A DNA stretch of 39,093 nt from the sequence record AY264775.1, one strand, 5' to 3'. The translations under genes were made by a program, and so were the position numbers. The notes under the pieces were generated by a model. The model was given only the letters and a program-made list of their open reading frames with translations, made no database searches and was not told the DNA's origin. The first letter of the stretch is position 1, and each line of letters opens with the position of its first letter. The DNA comes from Escherichia phage T7. Below, in pieces: positions 2,327 to 23,366 of the stretch.

Positions 2327-4978
2327 ATGAACACGATTAACATTGCTAAGAACGACTTCTCTGACATCGAACTGGCTGCTATCCCGTTCAACACTCTGGC
2401 TGACCATTACGGTGAGCGTTTAGCTCGCGAACAGTTGGCTCTTGAACATGAGTCTTACGAGATGGGTGAAGCACGCTTCCGCAAGATGTTTGAGCGTCAA
2501 CTTAAAGCTGGTGAGGTTGCGGATAACGCTGCCGCCAAGCCTCTCATCACTACCCTACTCCCTAAGATGATTGCACGCATCAACGACTGGTTTGAGGAAG
2601 TGAAAGCTAAGCGCGGCAAGCGTCCGACAGCCTTCCAGTTTCTGCAAGAAATCAAGCCGGAAGCCGTAGCGTACATCACCATTAAAACCACTCTGGCTTG
2701 CCTAACCAGTGCTGACAATATAACCGTTCAGGCTGTAGCAAGCGCAATCGGTCGGGCCATTGAGGACGAGGCTCGCTTCGGTCGTATCCGTGACCTTGAA
2801 GCTAAGCACTTCAAGAAAAACGTTGAGGAACAACTCAACAAGCGCGTAGGGCACGTCTACAAGAAAGCATTTATGCAAGTTGTCGAGGCTGACATGCTCT
2901 CTAAGGGTCTACTCGGTGGCGAGGCGTGGTCTTCGTGGCATAAGGAAGACTCTATTCATGTAGGAGTACGCTGCATCGAGATGCTCATTGAGTCAACCGG
3001 AATGGTTAGCTTACACCGCCAAAATGCTGGCGTAGTAGGTCAAGACTCTGAGACTATCGAACTCGCACCTGAATACGCTGAGGCTATCGCAACCCGTGCA
3101 GGTGCGCTGGCTGGCATTTCTCCAATGTTCCAACCTTGCGTAATTCCTTCTAAGCCGTGGACTGGCATTACTGGTGGTGGCTATTGGGCTAACGGTCGTC
3201 GTCCTCTGGCGCTGGTGCGTACTCACAGTAAGAAAGCACTGATGCGCTACGAAAACGTTTACATGCCTGAGGTGTACAAAGCGATTAACATTGCGCAAAA
3301 CACCGCATGGAAAATCAACAAGAAAGTCCTAGCGGTCGCCAACGTAATTACCAAGTGGAAGCATTGTCCGGTCGAGGACATCCCTGCGATTGAGCGTGAA
3401 GAACTCCCGATGAAACCGAAAGACATCGACATGAATCCTGAGGCTCTCACCGCGTGGAAACGTGCTGCCGCTGCTGTGTACCGCAAGGACAAGGCTCGCA
3501 AATCTCGCCGTATCAACCTTGAGTTCATGCTTGAGCAAGCCAATAAGTTTGCTAACCATAAGGCCATCTGGTTCCCTTACAACATGGACTGGCGCGGTCG
3601 TGTTTACGCTGTGTCAATGTTCAACCCGCAAGGTAACGATATGACCAAAGGACTGCTTACGCTGGCGAAAGGTAAACCAATCGGTAAGGAAGGTTACTAC
3701 TGGCTGAAAATCCACGGTGCAAACTGTGCGGGTGTCGATAAGGTTCCGTTCCCTGAGCGCATCAAGTTCATTGAGGAAAACCACGAGAACATCATGGCTT
3801 GTGCTAAGTCTCCACTGGAGAACACTTGGTGGGCTGAGCAAAATTCTCCGTTCTGCTTCCTTGCGTTCTGCTTTGAGTACGCTGGAGTACAGCACCACGG
3901 CCTGAGCTATAACTGCTCCCTTCCGCTGGCGTTTGACGGGTCTTGCTCTGGCATCCAGCACTTCTCCGCGATGCTCCGAGATGAGGTAGGTGGTCGCGCG
4001 GTTAACTTGCTTCCTAGTGAAACCGTTCAGGACATCTACGGGATTGTTGCTAAAAAAGTCAACGAGATTCTACAAGCAGACGCAATCAATGGGACTGATA
4101 ACGAAGTAGTTACCGTGACCGATGAGAACACTGGTGAAATCTCTGAGAAAATCAAACTGGGCACTAAGGCACTGGCTGGTCAATGGCTGGCTTACGGTGT
4201 TACTCGCAGTGTGACTAAGCGTTCAGTCATGACGCTGGCTTACGGGTCCAAAGAGTTCGGCTTCCGTCAACAAGTGCTAGAAGATACCATTCAGCCAGCT
4301 ATTGATTCCGGCAAGGGTCTGATGTTCACTCAGCCGAATCAGGCTGCTGGATACATGGCTAAGCTGATTTGGGAATCTGTGAGCGTGACGGTGGTAGCTG
4401 CGGTTGAAGCAATGAACTGGCTTAAGTCTGCTGCTAAGCTGCTGGCTGCTGAGGTCAAAGATAAGAAGACTGGAGAGATTCTTCGCAAGCGTTGCGCTGT
4501 GCATTGGGTAACTCCTGATGGTTTCCCTGTGTGGCAGGAATACAAGAAGCCTATTCAGACGCGCTTGAACCTGATGTTCCTCGGTCAGTTCCGCTTACAG
4601 CCTACCATTAATACCAACAAAGATAGCGAGATTGATGCACACAAACAGGAGTCTGGTATCGCTCCTAACTTTGTACACAGTCAAGACGGTAGCCATCTTC
4701 GTAAGACTGTAGTGTGGGCACACGAGAAGTACGGAATCGAATCTTTTGCACTGATTCACGACTCCTTCGGTACCATTCCGGCTGACGCTGCGAACCTGTT
4801 CAAAGCAGTGCGCGAAACTATGGTTGACACATATGAGTCTTGTGATGTACTGGCTGATTTCTACGACCAGTTCGCTGACCAGTTGCACGAGTCTCAATTG
4901 GACAAAATGCCAGCACTTCCGGCTAAAGGTAACTTGAACCTCCGTGACATCTTAGAGTCGGACTTCGCGTTCGCGTAA
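2327..4978 (+). CDS. 1: T7 RNA polymerase (gp1)
   Basis: 883-aa ORF, essentially identical to canonical T7 RNAP apart from a handful of substitutions. Confidence 0.99.
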   Translation: MNTINIAKNDFSDIELAAIPFNTLADHYGERLAREQLALEHESYEMGEARFRKMFERQLKAGEVADNAAAKPLITTLLPKMIARINDWFEEVKAKRGKRPTAFQFLQEIKPEAVAYITIKTTLACLTSADNITVQAVASAIGRAIEDEARFGRIRDLEAKHFKKNVEEQLNKRVGHVYKKAFMQVVEADMLSKGLLGGEAWSSWHKEDSIHVGVRCIEMLIESTGMVSLHRQNAGVVGQDSETIELAPEYAEAIATRAGALAGISPMFQPCVIPSKPWTGITGGGYWANGRRPLALVRTHSKKALMRYENVYMPEVYKAINIAQNTAWKINKKVLAVANVITKWKHCPVEDIPAIEREELPMKPKDIDMNPEALTAWKRAAAAVYRKDKARKSRRINLEFMLEQANKFANHKAIWFPYNMDWRGRVYAVSMFNPQGNDMTKGLLTLAKGKPIGKEGYYWLKIHGANCAGVDKVPFPERIKFIEENHENIMACAKSPLENTWWAEQNSPFCFLAFCFEYAGVQHHGLSYNCSLPLAFDGSCSGIQHFSAMLRDEVGGRAVNLLPSETVQDIYGIVAKKVNEILQADAINGTDNEVVTVTDENTGEISEKIKLGTKALAGQWLAYGVTRSVTKRSVMTLAYGSKEFGFRQQVLEDTIQPAIDSGKGLMFTQPNQAAGYMAKLIWESVSVTVVAAVEAMNWLKSAAKLLAAEVKDKKTGEILRKRCAVHWVTPDGFPVWQEYKKPIQTRLNLMFLGQFRLQPTINTNKDSEIDAHKQESGIAPNFVHSQDGSHLRKTVVWAHEKYGIESFALIHDSFGTIPADAANLFKAVRETMVDTYESCDVLADFYDQFADQLHESQLDKMPALPAKGNLNLRDILESDFAFA

Positions 4979-4986
4979 CGCCAAAT

Positions 4987-5009
4987 CAATACGACTCACT
5001 ATAGAGGAA
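4987..5009 (+). promoter_or_regulatory. T7 promoter phi1.1A
   Basis: caatacgactcactatagaggaa. Confidence 0.85.
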
Positions 5010-6763: not shown

Positions 6764-6919
6764 ATGTTTAAGAAGGTTGGTAAATTCCTTGCGGCTTTGG
6801 CAGCTATCCTGACGCTTGCGTATATTCTTGCAGTATACCTTCAAGTAGCACTAGTAGTAATTGGCGCTTGTTATTTAGCGACAGTGTGTGCTTGCGTGTG
6901 GAGTATAGTTAACTGGTAA
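6764..6919 (+). CDS. 1.4: gp1.4, small hydrophobic protein
   Basis: 51-aa ORF MFKKVGKFLAALAAILTLAY... Confidence 0.75.
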   Translation: MFKKVGKFLAALAAILTLAYILAVYLQVALVVIGACYLATVCACVWSIVNW

Positions 6920-6939
6920 TACGACTCACTAAAAGAGGT
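6917..6939 (+). promoter_or_regulatory. T7 promoter phi1.5 (variant: A at +1)
   Basis: taatacgactcactaaa|agaggt; every other class II promoter in the window has G at +1. Confidence 0.8.
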
Positions 6940-10380: not shown

Positions 10381-12479
<2,099 letters not shown>

Positions 12480-16673: not shown

Positions 16674-17562
16674 CCTTAAACAATTCTATGAGTTACGTGA
16701 AGGCTGCGACGACAAGAGTATCCTTGTGATGGACGGCGACTGGCTGGTCTTCCAAGCTATGAGTGCTGCTGAGTTTGATGCCTCTTGGGAGGAAGAGATT
16801 TGGCACCGATGCTGTGACCACGCTAAGGCCCGTCAGATTCTTGAGGATTCCATTAAGTCCTACGAGACCCGTAAGAAGGCTTGGGCAGGTGCTCCAATTG
16901 TCCTTGCGTTCACCGATAGTGTTAACTGGCGTAAAGAACTGGTTGACCCGAACTATAAGACTAACCGTAAGGCCGTGAAGAAACCTGTAGGGTACTTTGA
17001 GTTCCTTGATGCTCTCTTTGAGCGCGAAGAGTTCTATTGCATCCGTGAGCCTATGCTTGAGGGTGATGACGTTATGGGAGTTATTGCTTCCAATCCGTCT
17101 GCCTTCGGTGCTCGTAAGGCTGTAATCATCTCTTGCGATAAGGACTTTAAGACCATTCCTAACTGTGACTTCCTGTGGTGTACCACTGGTAACATCCTGA
17201 TTCAGACCGAAGAGTCCGCTGACTGGTGGCACCTTTTCCAGACCATCAAGGGTGACATCACTGATGGTTACTCAGGGATTGCTGGATGGGGTGATACCGC
17301 CGAGGACTTCTTGAATAACCCGTTCATAATCGAGCCTAAAACGTCTGTGCTTAAGTCCGGTAAGAACAAAGGCCAAGAGGTTACTAAATGGATTAAACGC
17401 GATCCTGAGCCTCATGAGACGCTTTGGGACTGCATTAAGTCCATTGGCGCGAAGGCTGGTATGACCGAAGAGGATATTATCAAGCAGGGCCAAATGGCTC
17501 GAATTCTACGGTTCAACGAGTACAACTTTATTGACAAGGAGATTTACCTGTGGAGACCGTAG
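16660..17562 (+). CDS. 6: 5'-3' exonuclease (gp6)
   Basis: 300-aa ORF. Confidence 0.97.
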   Translation: MALLDLKQFYELREGCDDKSILVMDGDWLVFQAMSAAEFDASWEEEIWHRCCDHAKARQILEDSIKSYETRKKAWAGAPIVLAFTDSVNWRKELVDPNYKTNRKAVKKPVGYFEFLDALFEREEFYCIREPMLEGDDVMGVIASNPSAFGARKAVIISCDKDFKTIPNCDFLWCTTGNILIQTEESADWWHLFQTIKGDITDGYSGIAGWGDTAEDFLNNPFIIEPKTSVLKSGKNKGQEVTKWIKRDPEPHETLWDCIKSIGAKAGMTEEDIIKQGQMARILRFNEYNFIDKEIYLWRP

Positions 17563-22100: not shown

Positions 22101-22122
22101 ACTTTAAGAAGGAAATATACAT
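22101..22122 (+). promoter_or_regulatory. Gene 10 translation initiation region with altered Shine-Dalgarno (aaggaa instead of aaggag)
   Basis: tttaagaaggaaatatacat ATG; the canonical T7 gene 10 leader is tttaagaaggagatatacat. Confidence 0.85.
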
Positions 22123-23160
22123 ATGGCTAGCATGACTGGTGGACAGCAAATGGGTACTAATCAAGGTAAAGGTGTAGTTGCTGCTGGAGATAAACTGGCG
22201 TTGTTCTTGAAGATATTTGGCGGTGAAGTCCTGACTGCGTTCGCTCGTACCTCCGTGACCACTTCTCGCCACATGGTACGTTCCATCTCCAGCGGTAAAT
22301 CCGCTCAGTTCCCTGTTCTGGGTCGCACTCAGGCAGCGTATCTGGCTCCGGGCGAGAACCTCGACGATAAACGTAAGGACATCAAACACACCGAGAAGGT
22401 AATCACCATTGACGGTCTCCTGACGGCTGACGTTCTGATTTATGATATTGAGGACGCGATGAACCACTACGACGTTCGCTCTGAGTATACCTCTCAGTTG
22501 GGTGAATCTCTGGCGATGGCTGCGGATGGTGCGGTTCTGGCTGAGATTGCCGGTCTGTGTAACGTGGAAAGCAAATATAATGAGAACATCGAGGGCTTAG
22601 GTACTGCTACCGTAATTGAGATCACTCAGAACAAGACCGCACTTACCGACCAAGTTGTGCTGGGTAAGGAGATTATTGCGGCTCTGACTAAGGCTCGTGC
22701 GACTCTGACCAAGAACTATGTTCCGGCTGCTGACCGTGTGTTCTACTGTGACCCAGATAGCTACTCTGCGATTCTGGCAGCACTGATGCCGAACGCAGCA
22801 AACTACGCTGCTCTGATTGACCCTGAGAAGGGTTCTATCCGCAACGTTATGGGCTTTGAGGTTGTAGAAGTTCCGCACCTCACCGCTGGTGGTGCTGGTA
22901 TTGCTCGTGAGGGCACTACTGGTCAGAAGCACGTCTTCCCTGCCAATAAAGGTGAGGGTAATGTCAAGGTTGCTAAGGACAACGTTATCGGCCTGTTCAT
23001 GCACCGCTCTGCGGTAGGTACTGTTAAGCTGCGTGACTTGGCTCTGGAGCGCGCTCGCCGTGCTAACTTCCAAGCGGACCAGATTATCGCTAAGTACGCA
23101 ATGGGTCACGGTGGTCTTCGCCCAGAAGCTGCTGGTGCAGTGGTTTTCAAAGTGGAGTAA
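22123..23160 (+). CDS. 10A: Major capsid protein gp10A
   Basis: 345-aa ORF beginning MASMTGGQQMG (T7-tag). Confidence 0.99.
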   Translation: MASMTGGQQMGTNQGKGVVAAGDKLALFLKIFGGEVLTAFARTSVTTSRHMVRSISSGKSAQFPVLGRTQAAYLAPGENLDDKRKDIKHTEKVITIDGLLTADVLIYDIEDAMNHYDVRSEYTSQLGESLAMAADGAVLAEIAGLCNVESKYNENIEGLGTATVIEITQNKTALTDQVVLGKEIIAALTKARATLTKNYVPAADRVFYCDPDSYSAILAALMPNAANYAALIDPEKGSIRNVMGFEVVEVPHLTAGGAGIAREGTTGQKHVFPANKGEGNVKVAKDNVIGLFMHRSAVGTVKLRDLALERARRANFQADQIIAKYAMGHGGLRPEAAGAVVFKVE

Positions 23161-23318
23161 TGCTGGGGGTGGCCTCAACGGTCGCTGCTAGTCCCGAAGA
23201 GGCGAGTGTTACTTCAACAGAAGAAACCTTAACGCCAGCACAGGAGGCCGCACGCACCCGCGCTGCTAACAAAGCCTGAAAGGAAGCTGAGTTGGCTGCT
23301 GTCACCGCTGAGCAATAA
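22123..23318 (+). CDS. 10B: Minor capsid protein gp10B (frameshift product); the -1 frame extension carries a premature TGA at 23277-23279
   Basis: -1 frame after the shift reads ...EAARTRAANKA*KEAELAAVTAEQ*. Confidence 0.75.
23142..23150 (+). other. Programmed -1 ribosomal frameshift region of gene 10 (produces 10B)
   Basis: ggttttcaa slippery stretch just before the 10A stop; the -1 frame continues toward 23318. Confidence 0.7.
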
Positions 23319-23366
23319 CTAGCATAACCCCTTGGGGCCTCTAAACGGGTCTTGAGGGGTTTTTTG
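23319..23366 (+). terminator. Tphi terminator for T7 RNAP
   Basis: ctagcataaccccttggggcctctaaacgggtcttgaggggttttttg, the canonical T7 terminator. Confidence 0.98.

What the first reader, a model, noticed from the sequence alone, without database searches (positions are those of the whole stretch)
23270..23318. Premature opal and a missense change in the 10B-specific C-terminal extension
The sequence upstream of Tphi is one I know well from pET vectors: gctgctaacaaagcCcgaaaggaagctgagttggctgctgCcaccgctgagcaataa. The window has gcctga (C->T at 23277, CGA Arg -> TGA) and gctgtcacc (C->T at 23302, Ala->Val). This would truncate the minor capsid protein 10B 13 residues before its normal end; 10B is dispensable.
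Basis: partly seen in the sequence, partly recalled or inferred. Interest (0 to 1): 0.5.

Follow-up and report, generated by a model that had tools for sequence, protein, structure and literature searches.

The report
Mutagen-induced stop truncating T7 10B
The window is a heavily mutagenised laboratory strain of phage T7, and the reported stop codon is a real but ordinary product of that mutagenesis, cutting 13 residues off a minor capsid protein the phage does not need in the lab.

Summary
Both base changes are real. Against wild-type T7 (V01146), the window has C>T at 23277 (T7 24121) and C>T at 23302 (T7 24146). In the -1 frame of gene 10 these give R386* (CGA>TGA) and A394V. Minor capsid protein 10B would be 385 aa instead of 398. 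A394V lies after the new stop, so it has no coding effect.

The context explains the changes. The window is a whole T7 genome with 414 substitutions, 94% of them G:C>A:T and biased to 5'-purine-G sites, which is an alkylating-mutagen signature. It differs by only 31 substitutions from GenBank AY264776 ("T7 isolate K115"). That record belongs to the AY264774-8 series, attributed here to the Bull et al. 2003 bottleneck mutation-accumulation study. K115 carries both changes.

The 171-nt 10B-only segment is expected to carry about 2.0 such changes and carries 2. Essential genes have no premature stops (about 10-15 expected if neutral). Nonessential reading frames have 4 (3.4-4.7 expected), and this is one of them. 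The slippery site, Tphi and the predicted RNA fold are preserved.

One nuance: eight natural T7 relatives conserve the tail at the protein level, and the stop falls inside that conserved block. "Dispensable" therefore holds for laboratory growth only.

Verdict: confirmed, correctly interpreted, already in public records, low interest.

The parts
22109..22114 (+). Gene 10 Shine-Dalgarno sequence, mutated from AAGGAG to AAGGAA (G>A at 22114, T7 22958). It serves both 10A and 10B.
22123..23160 (+). Gene 10A, major capsid protein. 345 codons plus TAA; 6 missense and 2 synonymous changes against T7, no stop.
   Evidence: PDB match to T7 10A
23142..23148 (+). Slippery heptamer G GTT TTC for the -1 frameshift that makes 10B. 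Identical to wild type.
   Evidence: (no substitution between T7 23950 and 24121)
23148..23276 (+). 10B-specific -1-frame codons 343-385 (QSGVML...RTRAANKA) that are still translated. Identical to wild type.
23277..23279 (+). New opal stop TGA, from CGA Arg386 by C>T at 23277 (T7 24121). The next base is A.
23280..23318 (+). Former 10B codons 387-398 plus the original TAA (23316-23318), now untranslated. Contains C>T at 23302 (GCC>GTC, nominal A394V).
23326..23366 (+). Tphi terminator hairpin and U-run, including the CCCC at 23328-23331 reported to take part in long-range stimulation of the gene 10 frameshift. Identical to wild type.

Best explanation
The window is a complete genome of a laboratory T7 lineage. 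It is the parent or a close sibling of GenBank 'isolate K115', and very probably the 'K' line (AY264775) of the Bull et al. 2003 experiment. That lineage was driven through repeated bottlenecks, with a mutational signature typical of an alkylating mutagen, and fixed hundreds of random G:C>A:T transitions. Two of those transitions fell in the 171-nt stretch read only by ribosomes that have slipped -1 at G GUU UUC near the end of gene 10. The first converts Arg386 (CGA) to UGA. The roughly 10% of ribosomes that frameshift therefore terminate 13 codons early and make a 385-aa 10B of about 40.6 kDa instead of 398 aa and about 41.8 kDa. The second change is then untranslated. 10A is unaffected, and phage growth in the lab does not need the 10B tail, so the stop was effectively neutral, was fixed by drift, and was never reverted. 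Shown directly: the base changes, the lineage relationship, the mutational spectrum, the neutral-expectation match, and the intact frameshift signals. Inferred: that the truncated protein is made and assembled, and that its fitness cost is negligible.
For: The window aligns end to end with T7, with 414 substitutions and an 820-bp early-region deletion. It differs from AY264776 (K115) by only 31 substitutions. AY264774 is the T7+ of Bull et al. 2003, and that study fixed random mutations by extreme bottlenecks. AY264775 is the one accession of the series missing from the collection. The spectrum is 199 G>A plus 191 C>T out of 414. The rate by 5' neighbour of the G is GG 3.8%, AG 2.8%, CG 1.0% and TG 0.7%. 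The 10B-only segment has 2.02 changes expected (2.09 context-weighted) and 2 observed. Essential genes have 0 stops against 14.9 expected (9.7 context-weighted). Nonessential frames have 4 stops against 4.66 expected (3.37 context-weighted): genes 4.7, 5.7, 5.9 and 10B. Both changes persist in the fitness-recovered descendant K115 and are absent from the independent P/P82 lineage, so there is no parallelism. The slippery site and Tphi are wild type, and the predicted fold keeps the same architecture. The literature says the 10B C-terminus is a surface-exposed, unstructured extension that display vectors replace, and that the 10A:10B ratio does not affect particle integrity.
Against: No protein data exist here, so production, stability and assembly of the truncated 10B are inferred. 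The Bull et al. 2003 paper could not be read, so assigning the window to 'isolate K', and nitrosoguanidine as the mutagen, rests on the accession series, the spectrum and my memory of that paper. Natural relatives conserve the removed residues under purifying selection, so the truncation may carry a cost outside lab conditions. Non-reversion in K115 is weak evidence of neutrality, because only 5 of the 414 substitutions reverted at all.
Confidence: 0.9

Rival explanations
1. The truncation was positively selected. Shortening the 10B tail would be beneficial or compensatory in this heavily mutated background, for example to offset altered capsid proteins or the weakened gene 10 ribosome-binding site.
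For: The allele is retained through the K115 recovery passages. K115 also gained another change (S365P, T>C at T7 24058) inside the small 10B-only segment. Gene 10A carries 6 missense changes and its SD is weakened.
Against: The mutation density in the segment equals the neutral expectation. The change has the mutagen's transition type. The independent P lineage did not acquire any 10B stop. Nearly all mutations, deleterious ones included, were retained in K115, so retention is uninformative.
Confidence: 0.04
2. The relevant effect is on RNA rather than protein. The two C>T changes would alter the mRNA structure between the shift site and Tphi, and so change frameshift efficiency, gene 10 mRNA stability or termination.
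For: Frameshifting in gene 10 is reported to depend on a distant element, the CCCC in Tphi more than 200 nt 3' of the shift site. Both mutated C's are predicted to be paired in wild type (P about 0.99), and the fold loses about 5 kcal/mol.
Against: The predicted architecture is unchanged. Each change only weakens a predicted G-C pair, which may persist as G-U. Total stability goes from -91.6 to -86.6 kcal/mol. Tphi pairing stays at probability 1.0, and the slippery site, the GGGGG run and CCCC are untouched. In natural relatives the variation in this block sits at third codon positions, so the constraint there is on the protein rather than on an RNA structure.
Confidence: 0.04
3. The differences are sequencing or assembly errors in this record.
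For: The sequences are Sanger-era. K115 contains several N's, and a few left-end differences between the window and K115 look like base-calling noise.
Against: Both changes are present in the separately deposited K115 genome. They match the dominant mutation class of the 414 substitutions.
Confidence: 0.02

Closest known systems
T7 isolate K115, GenBank AY264776 (the AY264774-8 series, attributed to Bull et al. 2003)
   Same: It carries the same two C>T changes (R386*, A394V), the same gene 10 SD change, and all but 7 of the window's comparable substitutions.
   Different: K115 has three further deletions (T7 1502-1758, 2579-3091, 16832-17485), 5 reversions and about 20 new changes, including S365P in the 10B-only segment. 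None of the AY2647xx records fetched (AY264774, AY264776-8) annotates 10B at all.
Wild-type T7 gene 10B, minor capsid protein (V01146, CAA24428; -1 frameshift at G GUU UUC)
   Same: The slippery heptamer, the -1 frame codons 343-385, Tphi and its CCCC element are identical.
   Different: Wild type reads 56 codons in the -1 frame, giving 398 aa. The window reads 43, giving 385 aa.
T7Select-type display vectors and engineered 10B tails
   Same: They show that the natural 10B C-terminal extension can be removed or replaced without loss of viability. The tail is described as unstructured and surface-exposed.
   Different: Those are engineered replacements of nearly the whole extension. From my own knowledge, the vectors truncate 10B at residue 348. 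Here a random point mutation removes only the last 13 residues.
Heat-adapted T7 with a mutated 10B stop codon (A24161C), PMC8923235
   Same: It is another experimental-evolution change confined to the extreme C-terminus of 10B.
   Different: That change lengthens 10B by three residues, was fixed in two replicate populations, and was discussed as possibly adaptive. The change here shortens 10B and shows no sign of selection.

Membership tests
Phage T7 genome, mutagenised K lineage of the AY264774-8 series | Collinear, near-identical alignment to T7 over the full length | tested here: met
   414 substitutions plus 4 indels over 39 kb against V01146
Phage T7 genome, mutagenised K lineage of the AY264774-8 series | Shares the lineage's derived mutations with K115 and not with the P lineage | tested here: met
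   31 substitutions from K115, against 665 from P and 680 from P82. All 14 substitutions in and around gene 10 affect sites that are also mutated in K115 (13 to the same base, one to a third state) and none is present in P/P82
Phage T7 genome, mutagenised K lineage of the AY264774-8 series | Identity with the deposited record AY264775 / the published mutation list | not testable with these tools
   AY264775 is absent from the collection and the paper is not held
Alkylating-agent (MNNG-type) mutagenesis product | Overwhelming G:C>A:T transitions | tested here: met
   390 of 414, or 94%
Alkylating-agent (MNNG-type) mutagenesis product | Preference for G preceded by a purine (5'-RG) | tested here: met
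   Rates are GG 3.8% and AG 2.8% against CG 1.0% and TG 0.7%. That this is the known MNNG signature is from my own knowledge.
Gene 10A/10B programmed -1 ribosomal frameshift | Slippery heptamer G GUU UUC at codons 341-342 of 10A | tested here: met
   Window 23142-23148, unchanged
Gene 10A/10B programmed -1 ribosomal frameshift | Open -1 frame extending beyond the 10A stop | tested here: met
   43 codons are open, against 56 in wild type
Gene 10A/10B programmed -1 ribosomal frameshift | Distal 3' element (CCCC in Tphi) intact | tested here: met
   Window 23328-23331 is unchanged and Tphi pairing probability is 1.0
Gene 10A/10B programmed -1 ribosomal frameshift | A frameshifted protein product is actually made and assembled into the capsid | not testable with these tools
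   Needs SDS-PAGE or mass spectrometry of virions

The most novel reading that the evidence does not exclude
The stop falls inside LTPAQ(K/E)AARTRAANKAR(K/R)EAELAA, the best-conserved block of the 10B tail, which eight natural Teseptimavirus genomes keep under protein-level purifying selection. The K and K115 phages would then be a ready-made partial loss-of-function allele of a 10B tail function that matters in nature but not in the lab. Its truncation, or the RNA change that comes with it, would have a measurable phenotype such as altered particle stability, adsorption or frameshift ratio.
Probability: 0.1. Interest if true: 0.35.

Novelty: already known. Interest (0 to 1): 0.1.

Why it matters
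It matters little. The finding documents that 10B can lose its last 13 residues in a phage that still grows. Display-vector practice already implies this, and the allele has been in GenBank since 2003 in K115. The analysis does give two modest results. First, nonsense mutations are missing from essential T7 genes and occur at about the neutral rate in nonessential frames, which is a clean internal control showing the 10B tail behaves as nonessential in the lab. Second, the 10B tail is nevertheless conserved at the protein level among natural relatives, so its natural function remains an open, minor question.

Tried and rejected
1. I tried to read Bull et al. 2003, Springman et al. 2010 and the three 1991 primary papers on gene 10 frameshifting. 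None is held, so statements about them rest on citing papers or on my memory, marked as such.

2. A tblastn search with the 10B tail was masked over the low-complexity C-terminal half. I fetched eight relatives instead and translated them directly.

3. I considered whether all four stops being TGA points to selection for the leaky stop codon. I rejected this because, once the mutagen's 5'-RG preference is included, 70% of expected stops are TGA and P(all four) = 0.24.

4. I considered an RNA-structure effect on frameshifting or termination. The predicted architecture and Tphi are unchanged.

5. The PDB search with the tail returned only unrelated proteins whose C-termini carry what look like pET-vector read-through tails. 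These are not homologues. T7 capsid entries contain only the 345-aa 10A.

6. Two literature searches failed on term length and one returned nothing.

Full report
**Observation**

The sequence at 23262-23318 reads gctgctaacaaagccTGAaaggaagctgagttggctgctgTcaccgctgagcaataa. A whole-genome alignment with the T7 reference V01146 puts the two differences at window 23277 (T7 24121, C>T) and window 23302 (T7 24146, C>T).

I reconstructed 10B as 342 zero-frame codons followed by the -1 frame starting at the C of TTC. This gives ...RTRAANKARKEAELAAATAEQ* (398 aa) in wild type and ...RTRAANKA* (385 aa) in the window. The changes are therefore R386* (CGA>TGA) and a nominal A394V that now lies after the stop. 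Thirteen residues, RKEAELAAATAEQ (about 1.37 kDa), are lost, taking 10B from 41.8 to 40.6 kDa.

**What the window is**

The gene 10 region matches T7 records at 99.1% identity, but matches one record, AY264776 "T7 isolate K115", at 99.8%. I fetched V01146, AY264774 (T7+), AY264776 (K115), AY264777 (isolate P) and AY264778 (P82) and aligned them all.

| Comparison with the window | Substitutions |
|---|---|
| Wild-type T7 (V01146) | 414 |
| K115 (AY264776) | 31 |
| Isolate P (AY264777) | 665 |
| P82 (AY264778) | 680 |

- Indels against V01146 are the loss of T7 1-24, an 820-bp deletion of T7 1759-2578 (genes 0.6-0.7), a 3-bp insertion in gene 1.5 and a 3-bp deletion in gene 1.7.
- AY264774 is the T7+ of Bull et al. 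2003, a study that fixed random mutations through series of extreme bottlenecks.
- AY264775, the one accession of the series missing from the collection, is therefore very probably the window itself, the "K" parent of K115.
- From memory, that study used nitrosoguanidine. I could not read the paper.

**Mutational spectrum**

Of the 414 substitutions, 199 are G>A and 191 are C>T, together 94%. The per-site rate depends strongly on the 5' neighbour of the mutated G:

| 5' context | Rate |
|---|---|
| GG | 3.8% |
| AG | 2.8% |
| CG | 1.0% |
| TG | 0.7% |

From my own knowledge, this is the 5'-purine-G preference typical of MNNG-type alkylation. Both changes in the finding belong to this dominant class.

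**Is the 10B stop special?**

- The genome-wide rate is 0.0206 per G/C site. The 171-nt 10B-only segment has 98 G/C sites, so it should carry 2.02 transitions (2.09 context-weighted). It carries 2.
- I counted every site at which a G:C>A:T change would create a stop. The essential/nonessential split below is my own classification from general T7 knowledge.

| Gene class | Target sites | Stops expected if neutral | Context-weighted | Stops observed |
|---|---|---|---|---|
| Essential genes | 723 | 14.9 | 9.7 | 0 |
| Nonessential frames, including the 10B tail | 226 | 4.66 | 3.37 | 4 |

- The four observed stops are 4.7 W48*, 5.7 W52*, 5.9 W13* and 10B R386*.
- The stop is therefore one of the handful expected in dispensable reading frames of a genome mutated at this density. 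By this test the 10B tail behaves as a nonessential sequence under lab conditions.
- All four stops being TGA is explained by the context bias (P = 0.24) and needs no appeal to leaky termination.

**Lineage behaviour**

- Both changes persist in K115, the descendant of this lineage. The independent P/P82 lineage has different changes in the tail (E375K, A389T) and no stop.
- There is no parallel evolution that would suggest selection.
- Retention in K115 is only weak evidence of neutrality, because just 5 of the 414 substitutions reverted.
- Of 135 phage records that match this 101-nt region, only K115 is identical to the window.

**Frameshift machinery and RNA**

- There are no substitutions between T7 23950 and 24121. 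The slippery G GTT TTC (window 23142-23148), the G-run after it and the whole of Tphi are wild type. That includes the CCCC (23328-23331) reported to take part in long-range stimulation of gene 10 frameshifting.
- I folded the 233 nt from the shift site through Tphi. The result was -91.6 kcal/mol for wild type and -86.6 kcal/mol for the window, with the same architecture.
- Each C>T only weakens a predicted G-C pair, which may persist as G-U. Tphi pairing probability stays at 1.0.
- An RNA-level phenotype is therefore unlikely, though a prediction cannot exclude it.
- Gene 10's Shine-Dalgarno sequence is weakened from AAGGAG to AAGGAA at 22114. This would lower 10A and 10B together.

**Is the tail really dispensable?**

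The literature describes the 10B C-terminus as an unstructured, surface-exposed extension that display vectors replace. It also says the 10A:10B ratio does not affect particle integrity. No solved capsid structure contains the tail; only 345-aa 10A chains are present. The PDB hits to the tail look like pET-vector read-through tails on unrelated proteins.

However, eight natural Teseptimavirus genomes tell a different story for natural conditions. They are from hosts recorded as Serratia, E. coli, Yersinia pestis and Salmonella, and include phiA1122.

- All eight keep the slippery heptamer and a -1 tail of 54-57 residues.
- The block LTPAQ(K/E)AARTRAANKAR(K/R)EAELAA is almost invariant, and the Arg386 codon CGA is invariant.
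- Within codons 30-51 of the extension, 9 of the 11 variable alignment columns are at third codon positions (P = 0.0014 under equal thirds).
- This shows the tail is translated and under purifying selection in nature.

The stop therefore removes part of a naturally conserved peptide. "Dispensable" should be read as "dispensable in the laboratory".

**Mechanism, with steps marked**

- Shown: the base changes, the lineage, the mutagen-type spectrum, the match to neutral density, and the intact shift signals.
- Inferred: the roughly 10% of ribosomes that shift to -1 terminate at UGA-A 13 codons early and make a 385-aa 10B that still assembles.
- Inferred: the change was fixed by drift during bottlenecking and has negligible cost in the lab.
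- Inferred from general knowledge of UGA leakiness: rare read-through would give Trp386/Val394 full-length protein at trace level.

**Verdict**

The feature is an ordinary, effectively neutral nonsense mutation in a published, deliberately mutagenised T7 genome, and the same allele is already public in AY264776. Interest is low. The only mildly new point is the protein-level conservation of the 10B tail among natural relatives, which is at odds with how readily the tail is lost in the lab.

Noticed in passing
window 22114 (T7 22958): A G>A change in the gene 10 Shine-Dalgarno sequence, AAGGAG>AAGGAA. It is also present in K115. It should reduce translation initiation of the most abundant phage protein, yet it was kept through fitness recovery.
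   Followed up: partly
window 13226, 16461, 16553: Three further premature opal stops, all TGG>TGA: gene 4.7 W48*, gene 5.7 W52* and gene 5.9 W13*. K115 later deleted the 5.3-5.9 region, and its record marks 4.7 as 'similar to gene 4.7'.
   Followed up: yes
window 1734/1735; about 7007; about 7355: An 820-bp deletion of T7 1759-2578 (the 3' end of gene 0.6 and the 5' half of kinase gene 0.7). There is also a 3-bp insertion in gene 1.5 and a 3-bp deletion in gene 1.7. The first 24 bases of T7 are absent from the window.
   Followed up: partly
whole window: The mutational signature is 94% G:C>A:T, with a 4- to 5-fold preference for G preceded by a purine. Essential genes carry no nonsense mutation although 10-15 would be expected if neutral.
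   Followed up: yes
window 4987-5009, 6917-6939, 11810-11832: The class II promoters phi1.1A, phi1.5 and phi4c each carry one G>A in or near the initiation region. All six consensus promoters found, including phi10 (window 22043), are unchanged.
   Followed up: no
L004 and L005 (isolates P and P82), at the position matching T7 24172: The independent P lineage has C>T at the first C of the CCCC in the Tphi stem, the distal element reported to be involved in gene 10 frameshifting. It also has E375K and A389T in the 10B tail. E375K recreates the Lys found in all eight natural relatives.
   Followed up: partly
L002 (K115), at window-equivalent 23214 and 22636: During recovery, K115 gained T>C (S365P) inside the small 10B-only segment. 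It also changed 10A codon 172 to a third state: Ala in T7, Thr in the window, Pro in K115. This could be compensatory evolution in the capsid gene.
   Followed up: no
window 23265-23318 (protein tail AANKARKEAELAAATAEQ): Dozens of unrelated PDB chains end in this T7 10B tail. Examples are orotidine 5'-phosphate decarboxylases, PET hydrolases and homoserine dehydrogenase. Presumably this is translation running into the vector's T7 terminator region in pET constructs. They are vector artefacts, not homologues.
   Followed up: partly
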